Below, one piece after another: positions 35,229 to 57,657 of a DNA stretch of 64,000 bases. The DNA comes from Candidatus Falkowbacteria bacterium. GTDB lineage: Bacteria > Patescibacteriota > Patescibacteriia > Patescibacteriales > UBA12465. Location of the stretch: contig VFKX01000007.1 in the NCBI GenBank assembly GCA_009885285.1, forward strand, positions 5,046 to 69,045, given 5' to 3'. The position numbers and the translations under genes were made by a program. The notes beneath the pieces are model-generated. The model was not told the DNA's origin. It saw only the letters and a list, made by a program, of their open reading frames with translations, and searched no databases. Positions within the stretch are counted from its first letter, which is position 1. Each line of letters starts with the position of its first letter.

Positions 35229-35265
35229 GCCTCGGCAATCCCAGCAAACCCGAATTCCAAAAATT

Positions 35266-35298: not shown

Positions 35299-35335
35299 CC
35301 GTACTTATTTAATCAAATCGTGATTATTTGCTTGA

Positions 35336-36868: not shown

Positions 36869-36944
36869 GTTCAATCAATTTTTGTTGAATGTTGGTCCTT
36901 GACGCGGTTACCTACGATTTATTCTGTTTTAAAAGAACTCCTAT

Positions 36945-38587: not shown

Positions 38588-40396
38588 TTAATCAACCTCT
38601 CCCATCGCCTGCAGCTTCAAGAGTTTGGCATACAAGCCACCATCGGCATTGGCTAACTCCTTATGAGTCCCCGTCTCAGCTACGCGGCCGCCTTCCAGCA
38701 CCACAATGTTGTCAGCCTGCTTAATAGTACTCAAGCGGTGCGCGATAATAACCATAGTTCTGTCCTGACTGATTTTTTTCATGGCATCCTGAATCAGCAC
38801 TTCACTTTGGCTATCAAGATTGGAAGTCGCTTCATCAAAAATCAAAACGCGGGGATTAGCCAGAATAGCTCGAGCGATACCCAACCGCTGGCGCTGGCCG
38901 CCGGATAATTTCACGCCTCGTTCGCCGGTCAAAGTTTCATAACCTTTATCCAAGCGGTTAATGAACTCATCGGCATTAGCAATTCTGGCCGCTTCCATAA
39001 CTTCCTCGCGAGTTGCCTCCGGACGGGCATAGGCAATATTTTCCGCCACCGTCAGGTCAAAAATTTCCACTTCCTGCGGCACAATTGCCAAGAATTTGCG
39101 GAAACCATGAAGATCATAGTCGCGTAAATCATGGCCATCAAGCAGAACACGACCTGACTGCGGATCATAATGACGATAGGCTAAGCGGGCGATAGTGGTC
39201 TTGCCGCCACCAGACGGACCGACAAGAGCAGTAATTTTTCCGGCCGGAATAGTGAAATTTAATTCACAAACCGCTGCCCGTTTACTCAAATCGTAATAGA
39301 AAGAGGTGTTGTCAAAAGTAATTTCTCCCTGAATATTTTCAGGCCTCAGACCATTATCAGGGTTAGTAATCTCACTCTCTTCATTAAATAATTGCAATAA
39401 ACGATTAACACCTTCCCGGCCCTCTTCCATGCGGTCATAAAAACGGGATAAGCGAAACAAGGAAGCGTAAGCCTTTTCACTCAGTGTAAAGACAAAGATC
39501 AGCGAGCCCACAGTCATCAGACCTTTATAAACCAAGTAGACACCGAGAAATAAAACGATAGAACGGCCGGTATCAACAATGAAATTTCGACCCATCCCTA
39601 TTTTCATCATCCAGCCATACTGCCTATCCTCATTATCACGAATATTTGTCTTAATGGCATCGAAGCCTTTAAGTTCATTTTCTTCTTGAACAAATGATTG
39701 GACAGCATTAATGTTAACAATGGCTTGCCCCATTTTGCCGGAAGCCACTTCATAGTCTTTATATATAGCCTTGCGAATCGGGTACATCCGCTTATTTGAC
39801 CAATAGGTAATAAAAATGAAAATTGGTGCGAAGACCATAAATGACAAACCAATCCGCCAATCCGTCCAAAACAAAGCAATAATAGTCACCACCAACTGAA
39901 AAGCGGTCGGCAAGACCTCCCAAAAAATACTGTTTAAAAACGAAGAGATTCTTTCTGAACCACGCTCAATTTTCACAATTTTCGCGCCAGTATTCTGGCG
40001 TTCATGATAGCCGAGAGAAAGAGCGACGAGTTTTTCCTGAGACTTCATGCCCAAGAAATATTCCACCTTAACCAACATCTTCAAGATGCGCCGATCGCTT
40101 AAATATTGAATAAATGATCGGAATTCATCGGTCGCTAGATACAAAGCAATGAGCTTCAGGAAAAAGATAAACTGGTCACGGGAAAATAAGCGGCCATCGG
40201 AAAAGCCGGTCAAGCCGTCAATAATTACCTTTAAGACGTAAGGCTTAACCAGGTCTAACAGAGCGGCGGTCAGAATAATGGCGGCAATAGCGCCGAACAT
40301 CTTCTTAAATGGCGCTAGCAAACGCCATAACTCCGCCCAGAAGCGGCTCCAGGAAATACTCTCTTTTTCAGTTTTGTCGTCCAATTCTTTACTCAT
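38588..40396 (-). CDS. ABC transporter, fused permease/ATPase (MsbA-like exporter)
   Basis: 6-TM N-domain plus an NBD with GPSGGGKTT, LSGGQRQR, LIFDEATS and IAHRLST. Confidence 0.85.
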   Translation of the reverse strand: MSKELDDKTEKESISWSRFWAELWRLLAPFKKMFGAIAAIILTAALLDLVKPYVLKVIIDGLTGFSDGRLFSRDQFIFFLKLIALYLATDEFRSFIQYLSDRRILKMLVKVEYFLGMKSQEKLVALSLGYHERQNTGAKIVKIERGSERISSFLNSIFWEVLPTAFQLVVTIIALFWTDWRIGLSFMVFAPIFIFITYWSNKRMYPIRKAIYKDYEVASGKMGQAIVNINAVQSFVQEENELKGFDAIKTNIRDNEDRQYGWMMKIGMGRNFIVDTGRSIVLFLGVYLVYKGLMTVGSLIFVFTLSEKAYASLFRLSRFYDRMEEGREGVNRLLQLFNEESEITNPDNGLRPENIQGEITFDNTSFYYDLSKRAAVCELNFTIPAGKITALVGPSGGGKTTIARLAYRHYDPQSGRVLLDGHDLRDYDLHGFRKFLAIVPQEVEIFDLTVAENIAYARPEATREEVMEAARIANADEFINRLDKGYETLTGERGVKLSGGQRQRLGIARAILANPRVLIFDEATSNLDSQSEVLIQDAMKKISQDRTMVIIAHRLSTIKQADNIVVLEGGRVAETGTHKELANADGGLYAKLLKLQAMGEVD

Positions 40397-40570: not shown

Positions 40571-42087
<1,517 letters not shown>

Positions 42088-42091
<4 letters not shown>

Positions 42092-43221
42092 AGTGGGCTG
42101 ATAATTTCTGTAATGATTGAGCTAATGGTGACGGCCGCATCGCGCTTAATAGCTTTACCGATATTATTGCTTAATTCTCTCTTGAGAACCGGATCGTTTA
42201 AGATATCTTTCACAGCCTGAGTCAGCTTTTCTGGAGTCAAACTGTCTTGATCAATATTTATAGCCGCTTTTAGATTAGCAAAATATGCAGAATTATCCTG
42301 CTGATGCGATTGTGGCATCGGAATAAGAATCGCTGGCTTCCGCCAATATGATAATTCGGTGAGAGTACTTAAGCCGGCGCGGGTCACCACTAAATCTGCA
42401 ATAGAGATAAGAGTGGACAAGGTTCGGTTATCCATCATTTCTAAAATATGATAATGCTGCATTTTCAGAAGCTCAGGATTATCCGGCAACTTACCTTTAC
42501 CAGTCAGATGGATTAACTGATAATGACGGGCTAGTTCCGATGATGCTTTAAAAACCAAACGGTTAATGCCGGTGGCGCCTAAGCCGCCGCCGAAGAATAA
42601 TACCAAGGGAATGGAATTATCTAGTTTAAAGTCATTTTTCAGCTTCTTAATTAATTGTTCGTCCGCCGTTTCCAGAGACCGGCGAATCGGATTGCCGGCC
42701 AAAACTGCCCGCGGTCCGTAATCAATTAAAGACTTATCAAAAACTACAGTAATCGTGCGCGCAAACGGGGCCATGAGCCGATTGGCTAAACCAGGACGCA
42801 AGTCCTGCTGATGGATAAGAATCGGAATTTTCTTGATGGCAGCCGCCCAGACCAATGGCACACTGACAAAAGCACCGGCACTGATGATAATCTGCGGTTG
42901 ATAGCGGGATAAAATACTAAATGATTGGATAAACGCCGCAACAATTTTAAATATGTCTAAGAGATTGTGGATAGATAAATACCGCCGCCATTTACCGCTG
43001 ATAAGAGGCACAAATTCCATCGGTCCGGTTTCCTGGTTATAAGAACTAACCATTTCTTTCTCCGGGCCGCGCTTCGTACCGACAAAGACTAGATTTAGTT
43101 TCACGTTTCCAATCTCGACAGATTCCCTGAATAATTCTTCGGCCACGGCTAAAAGCGGCACCACTGGACCGCCAGAACCGCCGCCGCTGAACATGATAGT
43201 TTTGATATTTTGCTTATCCAT
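42088..43221 (-). CDS. murG: undecaprenyldiphospho-muramoylpentapeptide beta-N-acetylglucosaminyltransferase
   Basis: SGGGSGGPVVP glycine-rich N-terminus, GT28 fold. Overlaps murC by 4 nt. Confidence 0.9.
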
Positions 43222-44356
43222 GTAATCGTTTAGTATGTTTACTTATATTTAAGAGGATACCCATCGCGAGCAGTGATGATAAAGCAGCCGATCCACCAGC
43301 CGAGACGAAAGGGAGAGGTACGCCGGTCATCGGAATCAGGTTAATCATGCCGCCGATATTCAGGAAGGATTGAATGGATAACCAGACAACAATGCCAGTC
43401 GCCAAAGAGCTGCCATAGATATCCGGCGCCGCCCGAGCAATTAATAGGCCCCGGTAAAAAATGAACAAGTACAACAATATCAAAAGTGATGAGAAGAAGA
43501 ATCCGGTCTCTTCGGCGATAATTGGAAAGATTGAATCGCCCCAGACTTCCGGTAAATACATGAACTTCTGCCGGCTATGCCCAATACCTCTGCCAAAAAA
43601 ACCGCCGGAACCTACCGCAATCAAAGATTGATTAATCTGATAACATTTATCTTGGGCGCTATAACTCGGATCTTCTAAACATTTAAAGCGGTCGCTGCGA
43701 TACGAAGAGGATAAGCTAACAAACAGAAAAAAAGCCAAGACAGCCAGAAACATCGCGATAATGATATGAGTCATCTTGCCGCCGCCGGCAAAAAAAACGA
43801 CGAGAGCCGTAAAGGCGATAATAAATAAAGTCCCTAAATCCGGCTGCATTAGCATTAAAACGCTGATAACTCCGAGAATGACCACGAAAGGAATAACGCC
43901 GCGCGTTAAGCTGCCGAGCTCGCCTTTCTTTGCCTCCAGCCAAGTGGCCAAATAAATCAGGAAAGATATTTTCACTAATTCCGAGGGCTGGAATGATCGA
44001 CCAAAAACATTAATCCAGCTGCGCGCCGTGCCGTATTCCGAACGCAAGCCGGGCACAAAAACTAAAAGTAGTAAGACAATGGAAAATAACAGAAAAAAAC
44101 TGGCAAACTTTTTCCATAAATGATAATCGATGCGAATAACCACAAAAAATACGACCAAAGCAATGCTTAAGCTGATTACCTGACCCAAAAAATAATGATA
44201 GGTATTGCCGAAGCGAGCATAAGAAACAATGGAAGAAGCGCTGAAGAGCATCACCAGACCAAACGCCAATAAGACGAATAAAGCCGTCATCAGGCTTTTA
44301 TCCGGTTCATGGCCGGTAACGGCTGCCGTTTTTTTATGTCTAAATTTTCCCCACAT
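43214..44356 (-). CDS. ftsW: peptidoglycan glycosyltransferase FtsW (SEDS family)
   Basis: 380 aa, polytopic, FtsW/RodA family. Lies between mraY and murG. Confidence 0.85.
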   Translation of the reverse strand: MWGKFRHKKTAAVTGHEPDKSLMTALFVLLAFGLVMLFSASSIVSYARFGNTYHYFLGQVISLSIALVVFFVVIRIDYHLWKKFASFFLLFSIVLLLLVFVPGLRSEYGTARSWINVFGRSFQPSELVKISFLIYLATWLEAKKGELGSLTRGVIPFVVILGVISVLMLMQPDLGTLFIIAFTALVVFFAGGGKMTHIIIAMFLAVLAFFLFVSLSSSYRSDRFKCLEDPSYSAQDKCYQINQSLIAVGSGGFFGRGIGHSRQKFMYLPEVWGDSIFPIIAEETGFFFSSLLILLYLFIFYRGLLIARAAPDIYGSSLATGIVVWLSIQSFLNIGGMINLIPMTGVPLPFVSAGGSAALSSLLAMGILLNISKHTKRLHG

Positions 44357-44359
44357 AGT

Positions 44360-45409
44360 TTAAAATTTTTGATCAAGCAAGAAAATCATTAGTCCAGTCG
44401 CCGCACCAATCGCCGCTATTACCCAGAAACGCATCACCACCTTAGCCTCTGACCAGCCGATGGCCTGGAAGTGATGATGAATTGGAGCCGACAAGAAAAC
44501 TTTCTTGCCCCGAAACTTTTTTGATGATAGCTGAATGATGACCGACAGGGATTCCAGTAGAAAGATGACGCCAATCGGAATTAACAGGAGTGAATTATTA
44601 GTCATCATGGCAATAATTCCCAAAGTCACACCGAGACTCATTGAACCAGTATCCCCCATATAGAAGCGGGCGGGCGGGATATTGAACCACAGGAAGGCGA
44701 GCAAGGCACCGATAATGACTCCGCAAAAAGTAGCCAGTTCAAAGCGGCCCAATAAAAAGGCGATAATGCCATAAGCGGCAAAAGAGATGAGGAGTGTACC
44801 ACCGGCCAAACCGTCGAGTCCGTCAGTTTCATTAACCGAAAATGAAGTGGCCACGATGATGAAAATAAAAATAGGAATATACCAAGCGCCAATCTCAAAA
44901 TTGCCGAAGAATGGGACATGAAAAACTGTCCAGTCCAGCTTGAAATAGAACCAGAGAGCGCCGGCAATGGCAATTAAAGTATAAATTAACAAGCGATGCC
45001 GGAGCTTCAAGCCGCCGCCGCCCAAGACACCTTTGCCGCGAACATCCAACCAATCATCAACCAGTCCAATCAGCGCCGTAATCACTAAGGCGCCCAGCGG
45101 CAACAATGTTTCCGAGCGGGATAAGAAGTTCAGGTGCTGAAAGATGGTATCAGGAAAAAAATCACTAAGGAGAGAAAATCCGAAGATAAAAACCAATACC
45201 GTTCCCCAAATCAAGACACCACCCATCGTCGGCGTTCCCTCTTTATGAGCATGTAATCCGCTAAATATCGGTGTTTCACCGGCATTCCTAATTTTCTTAC
45301 CCAGCTTATACTTATACAAGTAATGAGTTAAGAGCGGTGCCACGATAATTGTAAAAATAAAAGCGAGAGCTGAGAAAAACAAGATCTTCACGATGTAAAA
45401 TTCCATCAT
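44360..45409 (-). CDS. mraY: phospho-N-acetylmuramoyl-pentapeptide transferase
   Basis: 349 aa with NETDGLDGLAGG and HHHF motifs. Confidence 0.92.
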   Translation of the reverse strand: MMEFYIVKILFFSALAFIFTIIVAPLLTHYLYKYKLGKKIRNAGETPIFSGLHAHKEGTPTMGGVLIWGTVLVFIFGFSLLSDFFPDTIFQHLNFLSRSETLLPLGALVITALIGLVDDWLDVRGKGVLGGGGLKLRHRLLIYTLIAIAGALWFYFKLDWTVFHVPFFGNFEIGAWYIPIFIFIIVATSFSVNETDGLDGLAGGTLLISFAAYGIIAFLLGRFELATFCGVIIGALLAFLWFNIPPARFYMGDTGSMSLGVTLGIIAMMTNNSLLLIPIGVIFLLESLSVIIQLSSKKFRGKKVFLSAPIHHHFQAIGWSEAKVVMRFWVIAAIGAATGLMIFLLDQKF

Positions 45410-45418: not shown

Positions 45419-45832
45419 TTATCTAAAATTAATCAAATATATAAACATTAGAGCCAAACAAATTAGCAAGGAAAAGATCAGGGCCGATGATAATAAGAGG
45501 TTGGCGAAGATGCGGAAATGAAAACGACGATGCAAGGCGGCCGCCAAGAGCCAATTAAACAGGAAGATTCCCAAACCATAGGCGGGATATAAGAAAATCC
45601 GCCACGGCGCACCAACCAAATCAATACCAAAATCAATATTATAATGCAGGACTAATAAATCGCCGCTCAGGTTCCGATAAATATAGGCGGCCTGCAGCCA
45701 GCCGGCAAGTTGAAAAAGACAGGCTAACCCGAAATAGATGCGGCTGGAAGTGAAACGCCAGAGAGTCGAAAAGGCTGCCGCCACCTCTTGACGAAAAGAA
45801 TAAAAACGTGCGTATAAATTTGAGTAGGCCAT
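45419..45832 (-). CDS. hypothetical polytopic membrane protein (137 aa)
   Basis: ORF immediately upstream of mraY. No motif. Confidence 0.45.
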   Translation of the reverse strand: MAYSNLYARFYSFRQEVAAAFSTLWRFTSSRIYFGLACLFQLAGWLQAAYIYRNLSGDLLVLHYNIDFGIDLVGAPWRIFLYPAYGLGIFLFNWLLAAALHRRFHFRIFANLLLSSALIFSLLICLALMFIYLINFR

Positions 45833-45894
45833 AAAAAATATGCGAATTATCAGGATATTTTTAGTTTATCACATTTTAAAATAATACAAAACTA

Positions 45895-45903
45895 TGTTAT
45901 AAT
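45895..45903 (+). promoter_or_regulatory. extended -10 element TGTTATAAT upstream of the PilB-like gene
   Basis: About 20 nt before the ATG at 45924. Confidence 0.3.
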
Positions 45904-45923: not shown

Positions 45924-46934
45924 ATGAGCCAAAAAATAATCACCAAGATTTTTAATTACGCCAACACCGAAGGAGCGGAGCACCTCGTCATCCACAAGCA
46001 TGACAATCGTCTCGTACTCGATTGCTTTTGTCCCGGGACGGACAAGCAAAGTCTGATCCTGCCGAAACGGCTGGAAAAAGAATTCCTCTCTTCTTTGCGG
46101 AAAATTACCTCCATTGCGCCTGACGAATTAGTTTCCCAGAAATACTGTAAACTGCCGCATAAGAACGGTTGTCGGTATTTTTATTTAACTATCTTGCCGG
46201 AAGCTGGCAGCGAGAAAGTCATCATCAATTTCGTTAAGAAGTCCCCGACCCTTTGGCGCCTCAGTCAGCTCGGCTTGCAAAGGGCAGATCTTCAAACCTT
46301 AAAAAAATCATTGGCTCGAAAGTCCGGATTAGTACTTATTAGCTCTCCGGAAGGTTCCGGAAAAAGCGCTACCTTAAATGCTCTCCTGCTAGAAATGGGT
46401 GATAGTTCTAGAAGCGCCTATGCCTTAATGAAATATCGCGCTTATGATATTCCCGGTATCACAACCATGGGCTCCAATCCCAGGAACTGGGATAAAATCA
46501 TGAAAATCGATTCACAAGTAATTTATTCTGACGATTTAGATAATGCCGAATCTCTAAAAGAGGCCTGTCAGGCAGCTGCCAGTGGCCGCCTGGTCTTTGG
46601 CGCAATCAGTGCCGAAAATTGCTTAGTGGCAATAGAAAAAATCATGGCCTGTCCGCTACCCTTGAAATTAAAGCTTGATAACCTTAAGATAATTACTAAC
46701 CAGCGACTGGCAGTACTAAAGAGAAGTAAGCGCCTAAAAAACCAGCACCAGCGGAAAACTATCGGCCTCTTTGAGGTCTTAAAAGTTAGTCCGGCCGTCA
46801 GAGAATTTTTGATAAACCATGAGGGGCAAAATCTCAAAATGCATCAAGAAGAATTAGCGAAACTTATTTTGCAAGATGGCTTCGTTCCTCTAGCCTCCGA
46901 CCGCCAGCAAAAAACTCGGGACGGCCTGATTTAA
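45924..46934 (+). CDS. PilB/GspE-family secretion ATPase homolog with degenerate catalytic motifs (putative pseudo-ATPase)
   Basis: GspE-N2-like domain, Walker A SPEGSGKS and the conserved C-terminal region are present. The Asp/Glu box (EIRD to DDLD) and His box (TLHTND to AISAEN) are not conserved, and there is no tetracysteine motif. Confidence 0.6.
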   Translation: MSQKIITKIFNYANTEGAEHLVIHKHDNRLVLDCFCPGTDKQSLILPKRLEKEFLSSLRKITSIAPDELVSQKYCKLPHKNGCRYFYLTILPEAGSEKVIINFVKKSPTLWRLSQLGLQRADLQTLKKSLARKSGLVLISSPEGSGKSATLNALLLEMGDSSRSAYALMKYRAYDIPGITTMGSNPRNWDKIMKIDSQVIYSDDLDNAESLKEACQAAASGRLVFGAISAENCLVAIEKIMACPLPLKLKLDNLKIITNQRLAVLKRSKRLKNQHQRKTIGLFEVLKVSPAVREFLINHEGQNLKMHQEELAKLILQDGFVPLASDRQQKTRDGLI

Positions 46935-46969: not shown

Positions 46970-47632
46970 ATGAAAATAACCTGCGTCATCCCTGCTTGGA
47001 ATGAAGAAAAAAATATCGCCAAAGTAATTGCCGACGTCCGGCCTTATGTTGACGAAGTAGTCGTCATTGATGACTGCTCTCAAGATAAGACATCGGAATT
47101 GGCAACTGCCGCCGGAGCCACTGTCTTCCGCCACCCAATTAACCGCGGCCAAGGAGCGGCTTTGCAGACCGGCAATGACTATGCCTTAAGCGAAGGGGCG
47201 GATATTATTGTTCATTTTGACGCTGACGATCAATTCCTGTCCTCAGAAATAAAAGACATGGTAGCGCCAATTATCTCCGGCCAAGCCGACATTGTTTTCG
47301 GTTCCCGCTTCTTAGGCAAGAAGGCTAATCTGCCATTTGTCAAAAGAATAATAATCATGCCCTTGGCTCATATCTTTACCCGCCTTATTCTGGGCATCAG
47401 GTTAAGCGACCCGCAGAACGGTTTTCGGGCGATGAGCCGTTCGGCCGCTGAAAGCATCCGCATCGGTAATCGGGAGATGGCTCATAACAGTGAGATTCAG
47501 ATTGAAGCTTTTAGACAGCGTTTGCGGATAGCCGAAGTACCGATTACAGTCGTTTACCATCATTTCGGACAGAAGTTATCTGGCGGCTTTAAAGTCGCCC
47601 GCGATCTACTCATCCATAAGATAATTAAATAA
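46970..47632 (+). CDS. family 2 glycosyltransferase (Dpm1/GtrB-like)
   Basis: VIPAWNEEKNI ... VIDDCSQDKT ... DAD motifs. 220 aa. Confidence 0.8.
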   Translation: MKITCVIPAWNEEKNIAKVIADVRPYVDEVVVIDDCSQDKTSELATAAGATVFRHPINRGQGAALQTGNDYALSEGADIIVHFDADDQFLSSEIKDMVAPIISGQADIVFGSRFLGKKANLPFVKRIIIMPLAHIFTRLILGIRLSDPQNGFRAMSRSAAESIRIGNREMAHNSEIQIEAFRQRLRIAEVPITVVYHHFGQKLSGGFKVARDLLIHKIIK

Positions 47633-47636: not shown

Positions 47637-47957
47637 ATGCTGCAACAATTACTCGCCATCATCATCATTCTCTTCTTTGTTTTCCGTCTGGTTATCCAAA
47701 AAAAGAAAAACTTAATAAGTAAAAATGAATTTTTCTTGTGGCTGTCTTTTTGGGCGCTATCAGCTGGCGCCATTATCTTTATTAAGCAGATAGATAGACT
47801 CGTCGCCTCGCTCGGCTTTTCCGGCAGCGGTATCAATTTCTTAATTTATTTAGCCGTCCTAGCTTTATTCTATTTAGTTTTCCGCCTCCGCCTGGACCTA
47901 GCCAAGATGGATAGAAATTTAACAGAGATTGTTCGTCAAATGACTTTAAAAAAATAA
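47637..47957 (+). CDS. small membrane protein (106 aa)
   Basis: Two or three TM helices. It immediately follows the GT2, an arrangement commonly seen after GtrB-like GT2 genes. Confidence 0.45.
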   Translation: MLQQLLAIIIILFFVFRLVIQKKKNLISKNEFFLWLSFWALSAGAIIFIKQIDRLVASLGFSGSGINFLIYLAVLALFYLVFRLRLDLAKMDRNLTEIVRQMTLKK

Positions 47958-47959: not shown

Positions 47960-49087
47960 ATGAAAATCGCTTCCGTCGTCTGCACTTTTCCGCCTTATGC
48001 CGGCGGTATCGGCAACAGTGCCAAAACCATCAGTCAACTACTCCAAGCAGAATATGAAGTTCATGACTTCACGCCTTTTACTACTCGACCCTGGCTTAAG
48101 CATGGCCACGGCTCTGTCCTCGGATCCCTTCTTTGGCAGCTCAAAGACTTCGATTATATCTATCTCCACTATCCATACTTTGGAACAGATGCCATCATTT
48201 GGCTATCCAGATTATTTTATAAAAAACCAAAACTGATAATTCATTACCATATGGATGTCGCCGGCCTCAGCCCCTTCGCTCAAGTGCTGAGCCTGCCGAG
48301 TCGCTTGATCAGGAATTCTCTGCTCCAACAAGCCGACCTGATAGTTTCTGCCAGCCTCGACTATATTAAACATAGCCAAATCAAGAATTATTATGCTGCT
48401 CATCCGGAAAAATTTCGTGAAATTCCTTTTGCGATAGACTTGCATAAATTTCAACCGAGCAAGCTTAACCGAGCCACGGAAAATCAATTCCTCGTTAAAG
48501 CCAAAGAGATGGTGAACTTCGTCAAGAAAAAATTCATCAAACGCGACCGAAGTGATCTGCTCTTTGTTGGCGGACTGGATTCTGCTCATTACTTCAAAGG
48601 CGTGGAGATACTTTTACGCGCCATAGCGGGACTGACTGATTTAAATTTTACCCTGACAATTGTCGGCGACGGCGACCGGCGCTCTGTATATGAATCACTG
48701 GCCTTCCGCCTCGGCCTGGCCAAGCGCGTGACATTCGCCGGCAAACTGGCAGATAAGGATTTGGTCCGTGCCTATCAGCAAGCCGATCTCTTAATCCTGC
48801 CGTCAATAAATAGCAATGAAGCTTTTGGAATCGTATTGATTGAAGCTTTGGCCTGCGGCGTGCCGGTCATGGCCTCAGATTTGCCAGGAGTGCGCAGCGT
48901 CTTTACTGACGGTCAAGAAGGTTTCTTGGTTAAGGCCGGCGATATTACTGACCTGGAAGAAAAATTGCGCCGCTATCTTAGCGACCATTCCCTATCCAAA
49001 GAGATGTCCTTGAAAGCTAGACAACTAGCAGAAACAAAATACAGTCAAGCCATTATGTCAGAAAAATTACTGAGCTTATTTAAATAA
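47960..49087 (+). CDS. family 4 (GT-B) glycosyltransferase
   Basis: EAFGIVLIEALACGVPVMASDLPG (EX7E motif region). 375 aa. Confidence 0.8.
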   Translation: MKIASVVCTFPPYAGGIGNSAKTISQLLQAEYEVHDFTPFTTRPWLKHGHGSVLGSLLWQLKDFDYIYLHYPYFGTDAIIWLSRLFYKKPKLIIHYHMDVAGLSPFAQVLSLPSRLIRNSLLQQADLIVSASLDYIKHSQIKNYYAAHPEKFREIPFAIDLHKFQPSKLNRATENQFLVKAKEMVNFVKKKFIKRDRSDLLFVGGLDSAHYFKGVEILLRAIAGLTDLNFTLTIVGDGDRRSVYESLAFRLGLAKRVTFAGKLADKDLVRAYQQADLLILPSINSNEAFGIVLIEALACGVPVMASDLPGVRSVFTDGQEGFLVKAGDITDLEEKLRRYLSDHSLSKEMSLKARQLAETKYSQAIMSEKLLSLFK

Positions 49088-49088: not shown

Positions 49089-50159
49089 ATGAAAATCGGA
49101 TTAATCCATAACCTATACGGAGCCTATAGCCATGGCGGCGCTGAGACGGCCGTCAGTATGATGGCGGCAGATTATCGCACAGCCGGACACCAGGTTTTTA
49201 TTATTAGCAGCCGTCCAAAAAAACCATCAGAAAAAACAGATGAAGCCTGTTCAGAAAAAGTCTATTATCTTAGCTCGGAATTCTATAATCTCAGTCGCCA
49301 TTCCCTCGCCTATCGCGCTCTCTGGCAAATCAGCAATCTCCTGGCTGTCGGCAAAGCCCGGCAACTTAGAAAAATTCTAAAAAGCGAAAAGCCAGACTTA
49401 ATCATTACCCACAACTTAATGGGTATCGGCTTCCTCACACCTCGCGTCATCAAGAAATTAAAAATTCGCCATGAACATTTCCTCCATGACATCCAGCTTA
49501 TCCATCCTTCCGGACTAATGATCTGCGGCCAGGAAAAAAAAATTGATGCCTGTCCGGCTAAGATTTATCAGTCCTTAACCCGCCCCCTTTTCTCCTCTCC
49601 AGCCAAGGTAATTTCGCCCTCAAAATGGCTAATGGAAATACATAAGAAATACGGCTTCTTCAATGATTCTGAACAAGAAATCAGGCCCTTTGTCTGGCCA
49701 TATAGCTCGAGTGCCAGAAAAGAGGTCAGGGTAGCAGCCCAAAATTTTCTTTTTGTCGGCCAAGTGGAATCACAAAAAGGGATATTTCTGTTGATTAGTG
49801 CCTTCAAAAAAATAAATAATCCGGACCTAACTTTAACGATTGCTATTCGCGGCGGAGGCGCCAGCCTGGCAGCTGCCAAAGAGTCAGCTAAAGACGACGC
49901 CAGGATTATATTTCTCGGCCCATTATCATATGAAGAAACAGCTAAGATTATGTCGAAGAGTGATTGCTTAATCCTACCTTCCCTTTGCTATGAAAACTCT
50001 CCAACCGTGATTTACGGTGCTCACGCCGCTGGCTTACCTGTCATTGCTAGTCGTCTCGGCGGAATTCCGGAACTGATGGGCAAGGGTGACATGCTATTTG
50101 AGCCGGGAGATGAAACTGATTTGCAGAACAAAATAATTGAAATAAGTAAAAATAAATAA
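49089..50159 (+). CDS. family 4 (GT-B) glycosyltransferase
   Basis: C-terminal GT1/GT4 domain (ENSPTVIYGAHAAGLPVIASRLGGIPE). 356 aa. Confidence 0.8.
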   Translation: MKIGLIHNLYGAYSHGGAETAVSMMAADYRTAGHQVFIISSRPKKPSEKTDEACSEKVYYLSSEFYNLSRHSLAYRALWQISNLLAVGKARQLRKILKSEKPDLIITHNLMGIGFLTPRVIKKLKIRHEHFLHDIQLIHPSGLMICGQEKKIDACPAKIYQSLTRPLFSSPAKVISPSKWLMEIHKKYGFFNDSEQEIRPFVWPYSSSARKEVRVAAQNFLFVGQVESQKGIFLLISAFKKINNPDLTLTIAIRGGGASLAAAKESAKDDARIIFLGPLSYEETAKIMSKSDCLILPSLCYENSPTVIYGAHAAGLPVIASRLGGIPELMGKGDMLFEPGDETDLQNKIIEISKNK

Positions 50160-50218: not shown

Positions 50219-52144
50219 CTAATTACTAACGCGATAACGCCAGAAAGCAGAGCTGCCATTGCCCTGGCGGCCGTAAAGATATCCATTGGCATAGACCAGC
50301 GATCCTCCCCACCTGACATTGGCCGGAACAGACGACAAAGCAACCCAAGTTCCAGTATCAATAGCAAAGCGCCAGAAAGAAGGGGTATTATTCCCCTGAA
50401 AAGCATAAATATAGTTGCCACCAGTATAAGCCATTGAAGATCCCGCGTTAACATTTCCTAGGGCCGGCGTCGAGGTACTCCATATGTTATTAGTAACTGA
50501 GTAATGATAAAAAATTGCGTTATTATTCCCCGCTAGAGCATAAAGGTTATCCCCTCCGGCATAAGCTAATTCGCTCCACATCAAGTTGGCCGGAGCTTGA
50601 GCTATCGTTGTCCAATTTGCCCAAGTATTTGTAGGAATAGAGTAGCGGAAGACGGTTTTCGTGCCGCCCTGTCTCACATAGATATAATCGCCGCCGCCAT
50701 AAACAGCATGACCACCGATACCAAGGTTATAATCAGCATCAGCCATGGCTGCCCACGAATTACCAGAAATAGAATAACGCCAGAATGTCTTAGTCGTATC
50801 TCCTCTAGTTACATAAATAAAGTCTCCGCCAGCATAAACAGAGGATGTATAATTCTTGAAAGTATCTGGCGCATCTGTCATACGGGTCCAAGAATTACCC
50901 GAAATAGAATAACGCCAAAACTCCTTAGTCAAGTCAGCTCCCCCGGAATAAATATAGTCGCCGCCAGTATAAACTAAGCGAGGCACGCCATTATATACAG
51001 GCGACCCTGGAATATTCGTTAAAGTCGCCCAAGCGGCCTGATTAATGCCGGAACTATACGCAATGCCCGAACCATGAATATTCGTAGCTGTCACCTTTAT
51101 CGTAATGGTTGAGCTAGCCAGTAATTGAGTCAGGGCTAGCGTAGTACCAGTAGCACCGGATATATTACTTCCATTGGATAGCCATTGATAAGCATAGCTT
51201 AAATTAGAAGGATAAGCACTCCAACTGCCAAAAGAACTGATTAAAGTTTCGCCCGCTAGCAAAGACCCACTAACTACCGGTAAGGAAGTATTTGTTGGAG
51301 ATTCTTCTCTTGATAAGAAACCGTTTTGTCCATAAATAAAGATATGTTTACCGCCGGCCGAAGATTCTGCGTTATCCGCTGCCAATTCCGCAAACATAAC
51401 TCTGGCATCAGCATGGCCATTTAAAACCGGAATAACTCGACCGATAGAATAATCTTCGCCTTCAATAATCTTGGTTCCGCTTGACCAAGTGCCTGCAACG
51501 GAACGCTCCTTCAACATAATTTCACCATCCAAAGGAAAAGATTCGGTCCGCCAATTAACCGGCCAAGGATCAGCGTAATATAATTGAATAACGCCAGTTG
51601 GCAGTAAGACAGGAGCAAAGACATCATAGCGGGCCGCAGTGGTCGCCACCACCTCCGGCGCGGACCAGCCCGCTCCAGTGTCATACATATACATGATATT
51701 AAACGGCCCAGTATTCGGCCCAACGCCAAAGAAAACATGCGCTCGATTATTACCGTCTAGAAACCATACCGGAATATCCGTTCCTTTATCCGTTCCCAAG
51801 TGCTCATAAAGCATATAATCAGCATCTGCTTCCATTCTATCCACCGGCAAGTCGGCCGCCAATGTAGACACTGAACCGTCATAACTTAAAACGTCTCCGG
51901 TGACTGTATCATAACGAAAGAAATACACATTTTCTCTTTCCGTATCGACACCTGGACTCTCTTGGGCAATAAACCAGATTTCCGTCCCGACTGCCAAAAA
52001 ATTACCAGCATAAACCCTATTAACTTGAGGTGATTCATTCAAATTAACAATAATCTCCTCAGAACCCCAAGTCGCCACTCCATTACTTAGAGATGTTGTT
52101 TTCCTTAACGCCAAGCTTGCTACCCCTCCGGAACTGCGGCGCAT
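50219..52144 (-). CDS. surface protein, C-terminal segment: Ig-like region plus six Kelch-like beta-propeller repeats
   Basis: Six tandem repeats containing FWRYSISGNSW...YAGGDxIY. There is no signal peptide of its own. It is in frame with the upstream ORF. Confidence 0.6.
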   Translation of the reverse strand: MRRSSGGVASLALRKTTSLSNGVATWGSEEIIVNLNESPQVNRVYAGNFLAVGTEIWFIAQESPGVDTERENVYFFRYDTVTGDVLSYDGSVSTLAADLPVDRMEADADYMLYEHLGTDKGTDIPVWFLDGNNRAHVFFGVGPNTGPFNIMYMYDTGAGWSAPEVVATTAARYDVFAPVLLPTGVIQLYYADPWPVNWRTESFPLDGEIMLKERSVAGTWSSGTKIIEGEDYSIGRVIPVLNGHADARVMFAELAADNAESSAGGKHIFIYGQNGFLSREESPTNTSLPVVSGSLLAGETLISSFGSWSAYPSNLSYAYQWLSNGSNISGATGTTLALTQLLASSTITIKVTATNIHGSGIAYSSGINQAAWATLTNIPGSPVYNGVPRLVYTGGDYIYSGGADLTKEFWRYSISGNSWTRMTDAPDTFKNYTSSVYAGGDFIYVTRGDTTKTFWRYSISGNSWAAMADADYNLGIGGHAVYGGGDYIYVRQGGTKTVFRYSIPTNTWANWTTIAQAPANLMWSELAYAGGDNLYALAGNNNAIFYHYSVTNNIWSTSTPALGNVNAGSSMAYTGGNYIYAFQGNNTPSFWRFAIDTGTWVALSSVPANVRWGGSLVYANGYLYGRQGNGSSAFWRYRVSN

Positions 52145-52189
52145 GAAAAGATAAATGCTATTTCCGACTACAACCGGATGAGGATAAGT

Positions 52190-53302
52190 TTATCCGCCGG
52201 TGATAGGAGTTGAAGAAGCCCAGGAGCTAAAGTCATTAGGGGCGCTGGTTACCGCATACTGCATACTGCCCCCGTGAGCACCCCCAAATAAATGACCGTA
52301 GCCTTGGTAGTCCTGAACCATAGCTGGAACGCCGTGATCATCACTGATTAAAGTTGTAATTCCACTATCAACAATCGGACCGAATGTCTCCGTGGTATGA
52401 TTATAGGTAGAAACTTGAGCCTGGCGCCGGCCATCCGCGAAAGCCTCCCAGGCAAAAACGGTAGTATCTAAAGAATTTATATAAAATGCGGCCTCCCTAA
52501 TAGATCCAAACAAAGGAATAGTAGCCCCATTGTCAGCCACCGTACCAACTTCTGAAACGCTGGGAATATGACTAGGAGTCGGACTGTCATCCTCATTCGA
52601 GGACTGAGAAGAACCGCTGGGCGGAGCATACTTAAAAGGATCGTATGATAAGCTTAAGCCGCAGGCAACTTTAATATTCTTAATATCATGACCATTGATA
52701 TTACCAGTATTCAAATAGGTATAGCATTTCTGATCTGGATGACCAGTCAAAACAGAAATATTGTAACTGGCTCCGTCGGATATCCTTGACGGAAAAACAA
52801 AGTTAGCGCCGTCACTCGGCATAATAACTAGAGAGTCTCCGTTATTATTCAACAAGGTAACCGAACCGACTAGGCCGGTAATACTACCGCCAATAGAGTA
52901 CGAAGGGGCAGTTATAGCCGCAAATGCCTGGATAGCCTTAATCACGAATTCACTAATTTTTCTTTCAGCTATTTTCCGGTTAATTATTGCTCTCGTGACT
53001 GGACCAAAGAAACCTCGGGCCGAAGTTATCCCTTGAGATTTTTGAAAAGAGGCCAAGGCCTGCTTAGTTAACGCGCCAAAATATTCAGTTTCTTTGCCAG
53101 GTGAGCCAGCACCTGATTTAGATATTAGAAAATTATTACTATTCAGGAATTTTTGCAATTCCTTAACATCAATCCGAGTATCACCCGCCTTAAAATTACT
53201 ATTAAAAACAAAAGCCTGGGCTGCCGAACCAGAGAATAGTAGCCAAGTCAGGATAATGAAAAGTATTATTTTTCTTTTTATAATCAGAGAAACTTTAAGC
53301 AT
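52190..53302 (-). CDS. surface protein, N-terminal segment: signal peptide plus peptidoglycan-binding domain
   Basis: Signal peptide (LFIILTWLLFSGSAAQA) and a PG_binding_1-like region (DVKELQKFLN...YFGALTKQALASFQKSQG). It ends at a TAA that is in frame with the next ORF. Confidence 0.6.
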   Translation of the reverse strand: MLKVSLIIKRKIILFIILTWLLFSGSAAQAFVFNSNFKAGDTRIDVKELQKFLNSNNFLISKSGAGSPGKETEYFGALTKQALASFQKSQGITSARGFFGPVTRAIINRKIAERKISEFVIKAIQAFAAITAPSYSIGGSITGLVGSVTLLNNNGDSLVIMPSDGANFVFPSRISDGASYNISVLTGHPDQKCYTYLNTGNINGHDIKNIKVACGLSLSYDPFKYAPPSGSSQSSNEDDSPTPSHIPSVSEVGTVADNGATIPLFGSIREAAFYINSLDTTVFAWEAFADGRRQAQVSTYNHTTETFGPIVDSGITTLISDDHGVPAMVQDYQGYGHLFGGAHGGSMQYAVTSAPNDFSSWASSTPITGG

Positions 53303-56424: not shown

Positions 56425-57657
56425 TTACAGGCTCTTGATCAGATCCAAAGTCTCCTCAGCGCAGCGGCGCCAGCTAAACTTTTTAACCTGCTCCAAGCCC
56501 TTAACAATCAGGGTTTGACGCAAATCCTCGTCGGTAAAGATCCGCAACAACGCTTCCGCCATTGCCACCCTATCATGATGATCAAAATACAAAACTGCCT
56601 CACCAGCCACTTCCCGCAGCACGGGCAGGTCTGAAACAGCTGTCGGAATGCCGCAAGCCAATGCCTGCAGAACCGGAATACCGAAGCCCTCATGTTTAGA
56701 AGGAAAAACAAAGGCGGCGGCGGCATTTAAAATATAAGGTAAGTCATCTTCAGCCACCCAACCCGGCATAATAACACCATCATTTAAATCAAACTCTTCA
56801 ATAATATATTTTATCTCATCGTAGCCGAAACCGGCATCACCAATCAACACCAGTTTAGCTTTAATTTCCGGATGAGTCTCTTTCAAATAACCGAACGACT
56901 CCACGAGTGCCGGGATATTTTTCTTTTTTTCTAAACGGCCGACATACAAAAAGAATGGCGCCTCTATCGCATACTTGTCCAAAATAGCCGCCGTTTTCTC
57001 CGGCGATACTTCTAGGCGGCGATAAATCTTATCATTATAACCATTATGGATAACTCTAATCTTGTCGGCTGTAATCTTGCCAGGGTAAAGACTGAGGATA
57101 TCCTGCTTCGTAAATTCGGATACAGCAATGATTTTTTTAGCATGGCTCAAGGAAAAAGCTGTCGACCAATAAAGGTAGTCCACTGAATCACTGTGATATC
57201 GTCCGAAAGTTAAAACTTTGACTAAAAAATTTATAATATTCCTGGTGCCGACCAGGCCGGTTTTCACTTTCGTCGGCCGGTAAAGATTATGCTCCCGGAC
57301 GAAGGCGACATCATGGATAGTATTAACTGTCCGACGCGGACCGAAAAGTGGCAAGGCATGAGCCGGAATAAATAAAACATCGGGGCGCCGCCACAACATT
57401 TCTAGAGTCAAGCGGCCTAAAGTCCAAAAGGAATAAAATGGCCAATGCAAAAACTTAATTGAGAAATTCGGATTGCTCTTCACAATCGCCAGCAGTTCTG
57501 GCCGAGGCTCTTGATTCACATACAGCCAATAGATATTTTCTTTATCAATTTCCGCCAGATTCTTAATCACATAAAAAGAGTACCATTCGGTGCCGGTTTT
57601 ATGAAGCAGATTAGCGCGTGATGCATCAATGCCGATGATCATATTACTTGGTTGCAA
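56425..57657 (-). CDS. family 4 (GT-B) glycosyltransferase
   Basis: EGFGIPVLQALACGIPTAVSDLPVLREV motif region. 410 aa. Confidence 0.8.
   Translation of the reverse strand: MQPSNMIIGIDASRANLLHKTGTEWYSFYVIKNLAEIDKENIYWLYVNQEPRPELLAIVKSNPNFSIKFLHWPFYSFWTLGRLTLEMLWRRPDVLFIPAHALPLFGPRRTVNTIHDVAFVREHNLYRPTKVKTGLVGTRNIINFLVKVLTFGRYHSDSVDYLYWSTAFSLSHAKKIIAVSEFTKQDILSLYPGKITADKIRVIHNGYNDKIYRRLEVSPEKTAAILDKYAIEAPFFLYVGRLEKKKNIPALVESFGYLKETHPEIKAKLVLIGDAGFGYDEIKYIIEEFDLNDGVIMPGWVAEDDLPYILNAAAAFVFPSKHEGFGIPVLQALACGIPTAVSDLPVLREVAGEAVLYFDHHDRVAMAEALLRIFTDEDLRQTLIVKGLEQVKKFSWRRCAEETLDLIKSL

What the first reader, a model, noticed from the sequence alone, without database searches (positions are those of the whole stretch)
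45924..46934. PilB/GspE-like ATPase with degenerate Asp-box and His-box: candidate pseudo-ATPase next to a glycosylation cluster
The 336-aa protein aligns along its length with type II secretion / type IV pilus assembly ATPases. Present are the N2-like domain, the P-loop SPEGSGKS and a conserved C-terminal helical region. Missing are the acidic Asp-box and Glu residues (…DSQVIYSDDLDNAE… in place of …DPDVIMVGEIRD…), the His-box (AISAEN in place of TLHTND) and the tetracysteine zinc motif. The gene sits divergently from the mraY-ftsW-mur cluster and heads a plus-strand operon of GT2 and GT4 glycosyltransferases. Catalytically dead paralogs of secretion ATPases acting as regulators are rare and, to my knowledge, poorly described. 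A link to pilus or surface-glycan assembly is speculative.
Basis: partly seen in the sequence, partly recalled or inferred. Interest (0 to 1): 0.65.

Follow-up and report, generated by a model that had tools for sequence, protein, structure and literature searches.

The report
Degenerate pilus-motor relic heading glycosyltransferase operon
This gene is a stripped-down and probably hydrolysis-dead descendant of PilB, the motor that builds type IV pili; a clade of ultrasmall Patescibacteria keeps it under selection as the first gene of a cell-envelope sugar-transferase operon, which makes it a natural case of a motor protein turned into a likely non-enzymatic helper.

Summary
ORF 45924-46934 (+) encodes a 336-aa protein with the N2 and C-terminal ATPase domains of PilB/GspE. 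It lacks every residue needed for hydrolysis: both arginine fingers, the Asp-box Glu, the catalytic Glu, both His-box histidines and the Zn tetracysteine. It also lacks the N-terminal MshEN domain. This is not a one-off. At least 100 diverged relatives (Candidatus Falkowbacteria and allied Patescibacteria) share the same degenerate signature, with dN/dS of 0.1-0.2. All sit in one slot, divergent from TM137-mraY-ftsW-murG-murC and tightly coupled to a GacI/GacJ-like GT2-DUF2304 pair plus two GT4 genes. In sister lineages the same slot holds a fully canonical pilB, followed by pilC, pilins and pilMNO. Intermediate forms that still carry the Zn motif also exist. The gene is therefore a positional descendant of pilB. 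The family keeps the Walker A GK[ST] and has gained a classical Walker-B acidic residue in 102 of 102 members, which suggests Mg-nucleotide binding without turnover. My best reading is a pseudo-ATPase that acts as scaffold or regulator of the glycosyltransferase module. The function is inferred, not shown. It is a new variant of a known kind, of moderate interest.

The parts
45924..46934 (+). T2SSE* gene: 336-aa PilB/GspE-derived pseudo-ATPase with an N2-like domain (about aa 1-105) and a C-terminal ATPase domain (about aa 115-336). It has no MshEN/N1 domain.
46182..46229 (+). N2-domain segment holding the positions of the two PilB arginine fingers. R271 is Y87 (nt 46182-46184) and R286 is N102 (nt 46227-46229).
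   Evidence: The family shows Y/R/H at position 87 and N/S/D at 102. Canonical proteins have R at 99-100% of both.
46344..46367 (+). Walker A remnant SPEGSGKS. G146, K147 and S148 are kept.
   Evidence: In the family G146 is 102/102, K147 is 83 K and 17 R, and S148 is mostly S/T.
46416..46448 (+). Asp-box position, AYALMKYRAYD in place of STAEDPVEFNF. The Mg-binding Glu (E357 of PilB-Gm) is A173.
46509..46535 (+). Walker B segment DSQVIYSDD. D196 is conserved. D203 replaces the PilT-family Gly and is acidic in 102/102 family members. D204 stands where the catalytic Glu E395 should be, and that position varies in the family.
46581..46613 (+). His-box position SGRLVFGAISA. H413 is R222 (R in 94 and K in 8 of 102). 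H420 is S229 (variable).
46710..46763 (+). Basic linker AVLKRSKRLKNQHQRKTI that replaces the tetracysteine Zn sub-domain. It has no Cys.
   Evidence: AF2 pLDDT dips to about 65 here.
45875..45903 (+). Promoter-like site TTTAAA-17-TGtTATAAT (extended -10), 20 nt upstream of the ATG, in the 91-bp divergent intergenic region.
   Evidence: consensus match only
46970..47632 (+). GT2, a PpgS/GacI-like polyprenyl-phosphate sugar synthase (220 aa). It lies 35 nt after the T2SSE* stop, with no terminator between.
   Evidence: (PpgS NF058614 at 161.8 bits over the full length, below the equivalog cut-off of 370)
47637..47957 (+). DUF2304 small membrane protein, GacJ/Rv3632-like.
47960..49087 (+). GT4 glycosyltransferase (375 aa).
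49089..50159 (+). GT4 glycosyltransferase (356 aa), the last gene of the conserved plus-strand operon.
45419..45832 (-). TM137: a conserved 137-aa membrane protein with no family assignment. It is the first gene of the divergent mraY operon and marks the 'pilB slot' in every locus where that flank is present.
   Evidence: homologs in 71 loci, including the canonical-pilB loci L099-L101
40571..45409 (-). mraY (44360-45409), ftsW (43214-44356), murG (42088-43221) and murC (40571-42091), the divergent peptidoglycan-synthesis operon.

Best explanation
The gene is a pseudo-ATPase descended in place from pilB, the type IV pilus extension ATPase.

Origin. In the ancestor of this Patescibacteria clade the slot divergent from TM137-mraY held the pilus operon pilB-pilC-pilins-pilMNO. 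In one lineage a GT2-DUF2304-GT4-GT4 operon came to lie directly after pilB. The rest of the pilus genes then left the locus. The resident pilB lost its MshEN domain, arginine fingers and His box, and later its Asp box and Zn motif. Some branches also lost the C-terminal helices, and one branch lost the whole gene.

What the protein can still do. It keeps the PilB N2+CTD fold, the P-loop GK[ST], the first Walker-B Asp and an invariant Arg in place of the first His-box histidine. It has also acquired a classical Walker-B acidic residue. I therefore infer that it still binds a Mg-nucleotide, or another phosphate ligand, but cannot run the inter-subunit hydrolysis cycle.

Likely role. It is translated together with a GacI/GacJ-like polyprenyl-phosphate sugar synthase. 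It most likely works as a nucleotide-state-dependent scaffold or regulator of that envelope-glycosylation module, next to the peptidoglycan and MreB genes.

Shown: homology, fold, motif loss, family conservation, purifying selection, synteny, and the series of evolutionary states.
Inferred: lack of hydrolysis, retained ligand binding, and the scaffold or regulator role with the glycosyltransferases.
For: Fold and homology
- Closest to PilB/GspE. It is nearer to PilB/GspE (E about 1e-33) than to PilT (E about 1e-17).

Loss of catalytic residues, family-wide
- 90 canonical proteins read R/R, GGKT, EDE, DGE, HHT. 102 family members read Y/N, [SA]GKS, xxx, D[DE]x, RxA.
- These are the residues PMC5424180 calls completely conserved and mechanistically required.
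- Zn coordination is essential for EpsE activity (PMC5061722). Here the linker has 0 Cys.

Evidence that the gene is functional
- Full-length orthologs run down to 25% identity.
- dN/dS is 0.12 at dS 0.78, 0.21 at dS 0.26 and 0.22 at dS 0.24, against 0.01-0.19 for neighbouring genes.
- It is the fastest-evolving gene in the locus, yet it is retained.

Operon link
- All T2SSE*-seeded loci carry GT2-DUF2304-GT4-GT4 downstream where the contig reaches that far.
- 24 of 62 full-length genes overlap the GT2 start by 4 nt, and 50 of 62 lie within 10 nt or less.

Positional descent from pilB
- A canonical 573-579-aa PilB occupies the same slot in L069, L089 and L091/L099 (followed by the same GT operon, then inverted pilO-pilM-pilin-pilC) and in L101 and L102 (followed by pilC, pilins and pilMN).
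- Intermediates of 360-393 aa keep the Zn motif and the Asp-box Glu residues but already lack the Arg finger and His box.
- The best canonical hits of those intermediates are these same CPR PilBs.
- The mraY tree puts all degenerate and absent states in one clade, with the intermediates basal.

Retained pocket
- G146, D196 and R222 are invariant or nearly so. D/E203 is acidic in 102/102, exactly where PilT-like ATPases have Gly because the Asp-box Glu binds Mg instead.

Precedents
- M. xanthus PilB regulates exopolysaccharide production independently of ATP hydrolysis and pilus assembly (PMC5544727).
- The DUF2304 protein GacJ forms a complex with the GT2 GacI and stimulates it. Rv3632 likewise stimulates PpgS.
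Against: - There is no biochemical or interaction evidence. The scaffold or regulator role rests on operon structure alone.
- All sampled degenerate loci are syntenic on both sides, so the data cannot say whether the functional partner is the GT operon or the divergent TM137-mraY operon.
- The P-loop is not perfectly kept. K147 is R in 17% of members and S148 is G/N/H/D in some, so even nucleotide binding may not be universal.
- One clade has lost the gene altogether while keeping the GT operon (L052, L056, L059, L062, L072, L073). The GT module therefore does not strictly need it.
- dN/dS is higher than for the neighbouring genes.
- I could not determine whether these genomes carry another canonical pilB (one search gave a null result).
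Confidence: 0.55

Rival explanations
1. Rewired but active ATPase. The family swapped the PilT-type catalytic set for a classical ASCE set: Walker A Lys, Walker B hhhhD-D/E, and the invariant R222 as gamma-phosphate sensor or finger. It would still hydrolyse ATP, for example to energise a step of lipid-linked glycan synthesis or export.
For: - D/E203 is acidic in 102/102 members. The window protein has D203-D204, which resembles hhhhDE.
- R222 is nearly invariant, at a site close to the gamma-phosphate in PilB.
- Walker A GK[ST] is largely kept.
- The operon has no obvious flippase or GT-C enzyme of its own.
Against: - The position of the catalytic Glu is not conserved: D in 44, gap in 19 and S in 11 of 102, with other residues in the rest.
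- Walker A Lys is Arg in 17%, and the Ser/Thr is G/N/H/D in several members.
- Both trans arginine fingers, Q181, R194, R206, D207 and R239 are lost.
- The Zn domain, which is essential for EpsE activity, is deleted.
- It is the fastest-evolving protein in the locus.
Confidence: 0.2
2. Regulator of the pilus machine. The dead PilB copy forms mixed hexamers with a canonical PilB encoded elsewhere, or competes with it for PilC/PilM. It would tune pilus extension, and its position before the GT operon would be historical only.
For: - It derives from pilB and keeps the N2 and CTD packing-unit fold.
- EpsE mutants lacking the Zn domain are dominant negative (PMC5061722 abstract).
- Type IV pili are widespread in Patescibacteria (PMC11623550 abstract).
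- Canonical PilBs labelled Falkowbacteria exist (P0280, P0316, P0348).
Against: - No pilus gene lies in any of 71 degenerate loci or in the 64-kb window.
- Among 62 full-length degenerate genes, 50 end within 10 nt of the GT2 start, not next to pil genes.
- It lacks the MshEN/N1 domain.
- Sequence divergence from canonical PilB is extreme (about 21-22% identity), which makes mixed hexamers doubtful.
- Co-occurrence with a canonical pilB in the same genome was not shown.
Confidence: 0.12
3. Relic without a protein-level function. The ORF survives only because it carries the promoter and the translational coupling needed to express the GT2 gene, or because decay is incomplete.
For: - The state series ends in complete loss in one clade, and the C-terminus was truncated repeatedly.
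- It has the highest substitution rate in the locus.
- dN/dS is 0.36 in the closest pair, though on very few substitutions.
Against: - dN/dS is 0.12-0.22 in better-sampled pairs.
- The fold is predicted with high confidence from the family alignment.
- Specific residues (G146, D196, R222, D/E203, G117, G135, F283) are conserved across proteins down to 25-40% identity.
- No frameshifted copies were seen, apart from one split ORF (L068).
- The gene is retained across a clade whose MraY has diverged to about 70% identity.
Confidence: 0.08

Closest known systems
PilB / GspE (EpsE) type IV pilus and type II secretion extension ATPases (Pfam T2SSE PF00437; PDB 5tsg, 5zfr, 1p9r)
   Same: - It has the N2 domain plus RecA-like CTD fold.
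- The P-loop GK[ST], the first Walker-B Asp, the QRL motif and the C-terminal helices are kept.
- It occupies the very genomic slot that holds canonical pilB in sister lineages.
   Different: - It lacks the MshEN/N1 domain, both Arg fingers, the Asp-box Glu, the catalytic Glu, both His-box histidines and the Zn tetracysteine domain.
- It has an acidic residue where the family-defining Walker-B Gly sits.
- It scores 42-61 bits against NCBIfam PilB/GspE equivalogs whose cut-offs are 630-676.
- No pil or gsp genes lie nearby.
PilT / PilU retraction ATPases
   Same: Similar size (about 340 aa), no N1 domain and no Zn motif.
   Different: The profile match is much weaker (E about 1e-17 against 1e-33 for PilB). 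PilT keeps all catalytic motifs. The resemblance in size comes from secondary loss: intermediates still carry the PilB-type CxxC...CxxC motif.
Myxococcus xanthus PilB acting as a hydrolysis-independent signal for exopolysaccharide production (PMC5544727)
   Same: A PilB-fold protein influences surface-glycan production without needing ATP hydrolysis or pilus assembly. This is the nearest functional precedent for what I propose.
   Different: That PilB is a fully canonical, active motor with a second job, and it acts through the Dif pathway. Here the motor function is gone and the link is operonic. No experiment exists.
GacI/GacJ (S. pyogenes) and PpgS/Rv3632 (M. tuberculosis): a GT2 polyprenyl-phosphate HexNAc synthase with a small DUF2304 activator
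   Same: The two genes immediately downstream are a 220-aa GT2, whose best NCBIfam match is PpgS over its full length, and a 106-aa DUF2304 protein, in the same order.
   Different: The PpgS equivalog cut-off is not reached (161.8 against 370 bits). I found no report of a PilB-like partner in those systems in the one source read on them or in the two-term search that led to it. No GT-C transferase or Wzx/GtrA flippase was identified in the conserved operon.
EpsE mutants lacking the Zn-binding CM domain (PMC5061722)
   Same: Deleting the Zn domain, or replacing its Cys residues, abolishes function. The natural protein here has that deletion.
   Different: Those are laboratory mutants of an otherwise intact ATPase, and they are dominant negative. 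Here the deletion is one of many fixed changes in a selected family.

Membership tests
T2SSE superfamily (PilT/VirB11-like secretion ATPases, Pfam PF00437) | Significant match to the T2SSE domain model above the gathering score | tested here: met
   47.2 bits against a cut-off of 24.9, E = 1.6e-12, but only profile positions 95-279 of 370
T2SSE superfamily | N2 domain plus RecA-like CTD fold | tested here: met
   AF2 pLDDT 85.5. Foldseek gives EpsE and PilB at E about 1e-26 and TM about 0.63.
PilB / GspE extension ATPase (NCBIfam TIGR02538, TIGR02533) | Score above the equivalog cut-off | tested here: not met
   60.6 against 630.25 bits (GspE) and 41.9 against 675.65 bits (PilB)
PilB / GspE extension ATPase | Walker A GPTGSGK[ST] | tested here: inconclusive
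   SPEGSGKS: G146-K147-S148 are kept, while G141 is S and T143 is E. In the family, K is R in 17%.
PilB / GspE extension ATPase | Two trans arginine fingers in N2 (R271 and R286 of PilB-Gm) | tested here: not met
   Y87 and N102. At position 102 the family has no R (the set was selected on that) and shows N/S/D; at position 87, which was not a selection criterion, R remains in 14 of 102.
PilB / GspE extension ATPase | Asp-box Glu that binds Mg (E357) | tested here: not met
   A173 in the window protein. The position is E in only 40 of 102 family members.
PilB / GspE extension ATPase | Atypical Walker B ending in Gly, followed by the catalytic Glu (G394-E395) | tested here: not met
   D203-D204. 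The Gly position is D/E in 102/102 and the Glu position varies.
PilB / GspE extension ATPase | His box with two histidines (H413, H420) | tested here: not met
   R222 and S229
PilB / GspE extension ATPase | Tetracysteine Zn-binding sub-domain | tested here: not met
   An 18-19-aa linker with 0 Cys. The canonical median is 31.5 aa with 4 Cys.
PilB / GspE extension ATPase | N-terminal MshEN / T2SSE_N domain | tested here: not met
   The protein starts at the N2 domain. Its residues 4-263 align to residues 179/180-447/448 of the 578/579-aa CPR PilBs. There is no PF05157 hit.
PilB / GspE extension ATPase | Encoded with pilC/gspF, pilM and pilins | tested here: not met
   None in the window or in 71 degenerate loci. 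They are present only beside canonical PilB in L091, L099, L100, L101 and L102.
PilB / GspE extension ATPase | ATP hydrolysis as a hexamer | not testable with these tools
   Needs purified protein
PilT / PilU retraction ATPase | Closest profile similarity to PilT, with intact catalytic motifs | tested here: not met
   PilT E about 1e-17 against PilB E about 1e-33. TIGR01420 scores 46.9 against a cut-off of 319 bits.
Pseudoenzyme (inactive homolog kept by selection) | Catalytic residues lost across a family, together with purifying selection | tested here: met
   The signature is shared by 102 members. dN/dS is 0.12-0.22.
Pseudoenzyme | Demonstrated lack of catalysis | not testable with these tools
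   An ATPase assay is required
GacI/GacJ - PpgS/Rv3632 module (neighbouring genes) | GT2 of the polyprenyl-phosphate HexNAc synthase type, followed immediately by a DUF2304 protein | tested here: met
   PF00535 and PF10066, 4 nt apart. The best NCBIfam match is PpgS over the full length. The pairing is described.
GacI/GacJ - PpgS/Rv3632 module (neighbouring genes) | Equivalog-level identity with PpgS | tested here: not met
   161.8 bits against a cut-off of 370

The most novel reading that the evidence does not exclude
A type IV pilus motor has been exapted into a non-hydrolysing, nucleotide-sensing subunit of a polyprenyl-phosphate glycosyltransferase complex (GT2-DUF2304 plus two GT4). That subunit would couple cell-wall glycan decoration to the energy state, or to the adjacent peptidoglycan and MreB machinery, in a clade of ultrasmall Patescibacteria. 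This would be a previously undescribed job for the secretion-ATPase fold. The step-by-step path from motor to pseudoenzyme is preserved in living lineages.
Probability: 0.3. Interest if true: 0.7.

Novelty: new variant of a known kind. Interest (0 to 1): 0.5.

Why it matters
Pseudoenzymes derived from secretion or pilus ATPases turned up in none of the literature searches I ran. Public annotation calls these proteins simply 'ATPase, T2SS/T4P/T4SS family' or 'PilB-like'.

- **Risk of false pilus calls.** In Falkowbacteria-type genomes such an annotation would wrongly be counted as evidence for a pilus or secretion motor.
- **A graded natural series.** The locus preserves every stage: full pilB operon; pilB next to the GT operon; partly degenerate forms that keep the Zn motif; the core pseudo-ATPase; C-truncated forms; and loss. 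This series could show which parts of the PilB fold matter for roles other than hydrolysis.
- **The Walker-B reversion.** The switch back to a classical Walker-B acidic residue once the Asp-box Glu is dispensable is a neat test of the Mg-coordination model proposed for PilT-like ATPases.
- **Possible new control point.** If the protein does regulate a GacI/GacJ-like module, it would add a control point for envelope glycosylation in organisms whose surface biology underlies their episymbiotic lifestyle.

Tried and rejected
- **Unrelated P-loop family (nSTAND, AAA_16).** These are weak sub-threshold Pfam hits confined to the region around the P-loop. Full-length profile and fold matches to PilB/GspE reject them.
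- **Decaying one-off pseudogene.** Rejected, because there are 62 close orthologs and at least 100 cluster representatives with the same signature, and dN/dS is well below 1.
- **PilT-like origin.** Rejected on profile scores and on intermediates that keep the PilB-type Zn motif.
- **Catalytic Glu or His conserved in a shifted register.** Checked column by column against 90 canonical sequences. Only the -1 acidic residue is conserved.
- **GTDB scans.** The diverse alignment A1 failed because it has no conserved stretch. The single protein found nothing. The closer alignment A2 gave 6 loci.
- **Looking for a canonical PilB on the same large contigs as T2SSE*.** I compared 'longest_contig' values among the 120 best relatives of two CPR PilBs. 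There were no matches, but the lists are truncated from 8000 hits, so this is uninformative.
- **Literature searches.** Searches for a described PilB/GspE pseudo-ATPase, or for this arrangement next to the dcw-type mraY-ftsW-mur genes in the candidate phyla radiation (CPR, another name for Patescibacteria), found nothing relevant.
- **RNA genes.** tRNA and Rfam scans of the window found nothing.
- **Composition.** The profile shows no anomaly at the gene.
- **Cys count in canonical locus PilBs.** The automated count reads 0-1 only because the HMM alignment splits around the Zn domain. The CPNC...CKKC motif is visible in the sequences.
Full report
**1. The observation**

ORF 45924-46934 (+) is real, 336 aa, and starts with ATG. 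It matches Pfam T2SSE above the gathering score (47.2 against 24.9 bits). It matches V. cholerae EpsE at E = 8e-14. NCBIfam's PilB and GspE equivalog models score only 42-61 bits against cut-offs of 630-676.

A profile built from 31 orthologs (A1) hits Geobacter PilB and EpsE at E about 1e-33, and PilT only at about 1e-17. An AlphaFold2 model built on that alignment has pLDDT 85.5. Its best PDB matches are EpsE and PilB (E about 1e-26, TM about 0.63). The protein is therefore a PilB/GspE-type N2 + CTD protein.

It starts exactly where the N2 domain of PilB starts, at residue 179 or 180 of the 578/579-aa CPR PilBs (CPR, the candidate phyla radiation, is another name for Patescibacteria). The MshEN/N1 domain is missing.

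**2. Motif states**

I aligned 210 retrieved proteins to the family HMM. Ninety canonical PilB/GspE sequences show the signature R87, R102 / G141, G146, K147, T148 / E169, D170, E173 / D196, G203, E204 / H222, H229, T230 (window numbering).

Using the alignment to 5tsg (chain offset +20) and McCallum et al. 2017 (PMC5424180), these columns correspond to named PilB residues:
- the arginine fingers R271 and R286;
- the Mg-binding Asp-box Glu E357;
- the catalytic Glu E395;
- the His-box residues H413 and H420.

The window protein has Y87, N102, A173, D204, R222 and S229 at those positions. Walker A reads SPEGSGKS. The Zn tetracysteine sub-domain is replaced by an 18-aa basic linker without Cys. 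Zn coordination is essential for EpsE activity (PMC5061722).

The string it called the Asp box is actually the Walker B / catalytic-Glu segment, but the true Asp box (EDPxE, here MKYRA) is lost as well.

**3. A conserved family, not an accident**

The first homolog search found 62 orthologs, most of them about 336 aa and full length, at 36-60% identity. A wide gap separates them from canonical PilB. An exhaustive profile search of 1.84 billion cluster representatives found about 50-60 representatives of the family, plus more distant locus-mates.

In 102 family sequences the signature is [not R] / [SA] G K(83) or R(17) S / x x x / D [DE] x / R(94) or K(8) x A. Only about 20 of roughly 66 positions that are at least 85% conserved in canonical proteins survive, and most of those are structural.

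Source names are Candidatus Falkowbacteria and 'Patescibacteria group'. All are annotated generically as 'ATPase, T2SS/T4P/T4SS family'.

Nei-Gojobori dN/dS for pairs that are not saturated is 0.12 (dS 0.78), 0.21 (dS 0.26) and 0.22 (dS 0.24). Neighbouring genes give 0.01-0.19. The closest pair gives 0.36, on very few substitutions. The protein evolves faster than any other in the locus, for example 58% identity against 66-90%, or 25-28% against mostly 36-77%. So it is under selection, but relaxed selection, as expected for a pseudoenzyme.

**4. Gene context**

Every locus reached from the protein has the same layout:
- minus strand: ABC(MsbA-like)-murC-murG-ftsW-mraY-TM137;
- plus strand, divergent: T2SSE*-GT2-DUF2304-GT4-GT4.

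The usual continuation is, on the minus strand, epimerase-S8 peptidase-GT4-mreB. In the window mreB, mreC, mreD and murB are also close by.

The GT2 is PpgS/GacI-like: NF058614 scores 161.8 bits over the full length, below the equivalog cut-off. Its DUF2304 neighbour corresponds to GacJ/Rv3632, the small membrane activator of such synthases (bioRxiv 10.1101/180810).

Coupling to GT2 is tight. Among 62 full-length degenerate genes, 24 overlap the GT2 start by 4 nt and 50 lie within 10 nt or less. In the window the gap is 35 nt with no terminator. An extended -10 promoter-like site lies 20 nt upstream of the ATG.

**5. Origin**

A metagenome scan seeded with the GT2 gene returned 80 loci. Mapping them gave four states of the slot between TM137-mraY and GT2.

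(a) Degenerate T2SSE* occupies 71 loci, counting redundancy.

(b) The slot is empty in one clade, with TM137 directly divergent from GT2 (L052, L056, L059, L062, L072, L073).

(c) Intermediates of 360-393 aa already lack the Arg finger and His box and already have the D/E at position 203. Some (for example P0128, P0118, P0162, 379-389 aa) still keep the Asp-box glutamates and the CxxC...CxxC motif.

(d) A fully canonical 578-579-aa PilB sits in the slot, with MshEN, ASDIHIE, LPQDGR, GPTGSGKTTT, VEDPIEY, DPDIIMVGEIRD, TGHLVLSTLHTND and CPNC...CKKC (L069/L071, L089, L091).

Annotated contexts settle what the slot is.
- L099/L100: pilB-GT2-DUF2304-GT4-GT4, followed by inverted pilO, pilM, pilin and pilC.
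- L101 (Ca. Falkowbacteria) and L102: the slot carries pilB-pilC-pilins-pilM-pilN, directly divergent from TM137-mraY.

TM137 homology confirms that it is the same slot. Pilus genes occur only beside canonical PilB. They are absent from all degenerate loci and from the 64-kb window.

The less degenerate intermediates find these CPR PilBs as their best canonical hits; for P0162 the scores are 224, 221 and 220 bits against 196 for the next hit. An NJ tree of MraY puts canonical lineages on one side and all degenerate and absent states on the other. Intermediates are basal, the core family is nested, the roughly 290-aa C-truncated forms arise several times, and the losses form one clade. That tree uses a single gene and has no support values, so it is only suggestive.

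The most parsimonious history has six stages:
1. the full pilus operon;
2. the GT operon comes to lie after pilB;
3. the pil genes leave the locus;
4. pilB loses N1, the Arg fingers and the His box;
5. it then loses the Asp box and the Zn domain;
6. in some branches it loses the C-terminus, or the whole gene.

**6. Mechanism**

PilT-like ATPases have Gly where classical Walker B has its Mg-binding acidic residue, because the Asp-box Glu takes over Mg coordination. The family here has D or E at that Gly position in 102 of 102 members, and the change predates the loss of the Asp-box Glu. G146, D196 and R222 are also nearly invariant. The nucleotide pocket therefore still appears to be under selection.

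By contrast, the catalytic base, both trans arginine fingers and the gamma-phosphate histidine are gone. The Walker A Lys is Arg in 17% of members.

I conclude that hydrolysis by the PilB mechanism is lost. I infer that binding of a Mg-nucleotide or related phosphate ligand is retained. Given the coupling to GT2-DUF2304, I favour a scaffold or regulator role for that module (confidence about 0.55). The M. xanthus case, where PilB controls exopolysaccharide production independently of hydrolysis (PMC5544727), is the nearest precedent.

The rivals are:
- a rewired but active ATPase (0.2);
- a modulator of a canonical pilus motor encoded elsewhere (0.12);
- a relic kept only for operon expression (0.08).

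The data cannot separate partnership with the GT operon from partnership with the divergent mraY operon, because both flanks are invariant in all degenerate loci. One clade does without the gene.

**7. Novelty and verdict**

None of my literature searches retrieved a PilB/GspE pseudo-ATPase family or this locus. Databases label it as an ordinary secretion ATPase.

It fails most defining features of PilB/GspE while clearly descending from it. I therefore class it as a new variant of a known kind: a PilB-derived pseudoenzyme family with a well-preserved series of degeneration states. Interest is moderate (0.5). The evolutionary case is strong, and the function is inferred only.

Noticed in passing
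window 45419-45832 (-): TM137 is a 137-aa multi-pass membrane protein with no Pfam or NCBIfam match. It is always the first gene of the mraY-ftsW-murG-murC operon. It is conserved in 71 loci, including those with canonical pilB, so it marks the boundary of the 'pilB slot'. Its function is unknown.
   Followed up: partly
window 50219-53302 (-): Two genes lie between the last GT4 and the epimerase: a 641-aa Kelch-repeat protein and a 370-aa PG_binding_1 + BNR_4 protein. They are absent from the syntenic loci L001, L003 and L014, so this looks like a lineage-specific insertion of surface or cell-wall-binding proteins.
   Followed up: partly
window 32464-36874 (-): Three tandem paralogs (342, 460 and 512 aa) have no Pfam match. 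They share an N-terminal signal or lipobox-like sequence (…F[SAG]CNK) and a conserved about 330-aa core. They lie in a stretch of lower GC (0.38 against about 0.44).
   Followed up: no
window 57644-62730 (-): Two mreB paralogs flank a receiver-only response regulator (58738-59154), a PfkB-family sugar kinase (59266-60321), mreD and mreC. That is a full rod-shape system in a Patescibacteria genome, next to the glycosylation genes.
   Followed up: no
window 38588-40396 (-): An MsbA-like ABC exporter (TIGR02203, 402 bits, below cut-off) lies downstream of murC in the window and in L001, L003, L014 and L102; in L005 another gene separates them. It is a candidate flippase for a lipid-linked intermediate.
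   Followed up: partly
L099/L100 3989-7106; L101 5338-6916: In the canonical-pilB lineages the mur/fts operon is interrupted by mobile-looking or unrelated genes. L099 has an HNH endonuclease and small ORFs between murG and ftsW. L101 has a HigB/HTH toxin-antitoxin pair and an ornithine carbamoyltransferase.
   Followed up: no
proteins P0106-P0126: About 1000-aa proteins carry two tandem, fully canonical PilB ATPase modules. Both copies have the complete or near-complete catalytic signature, except for N, A or D/N substitutions at single positions. They ranked just below the family in the profile search.
   Followed up: no
window 19134-20567 (-): A ComEC-type competence channel gene (Competence + DUF4131) is present, although no type IV pilus gene occurs anywhere in the 64-kb window.
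   Followed up: no
L068 97-1124: This is the only degenerate locus where the T2SSE* reading frame is split in two ORFs (210 aa and 96 aa). It could be a true pseudogene or an assembly error.
   Followed up: no
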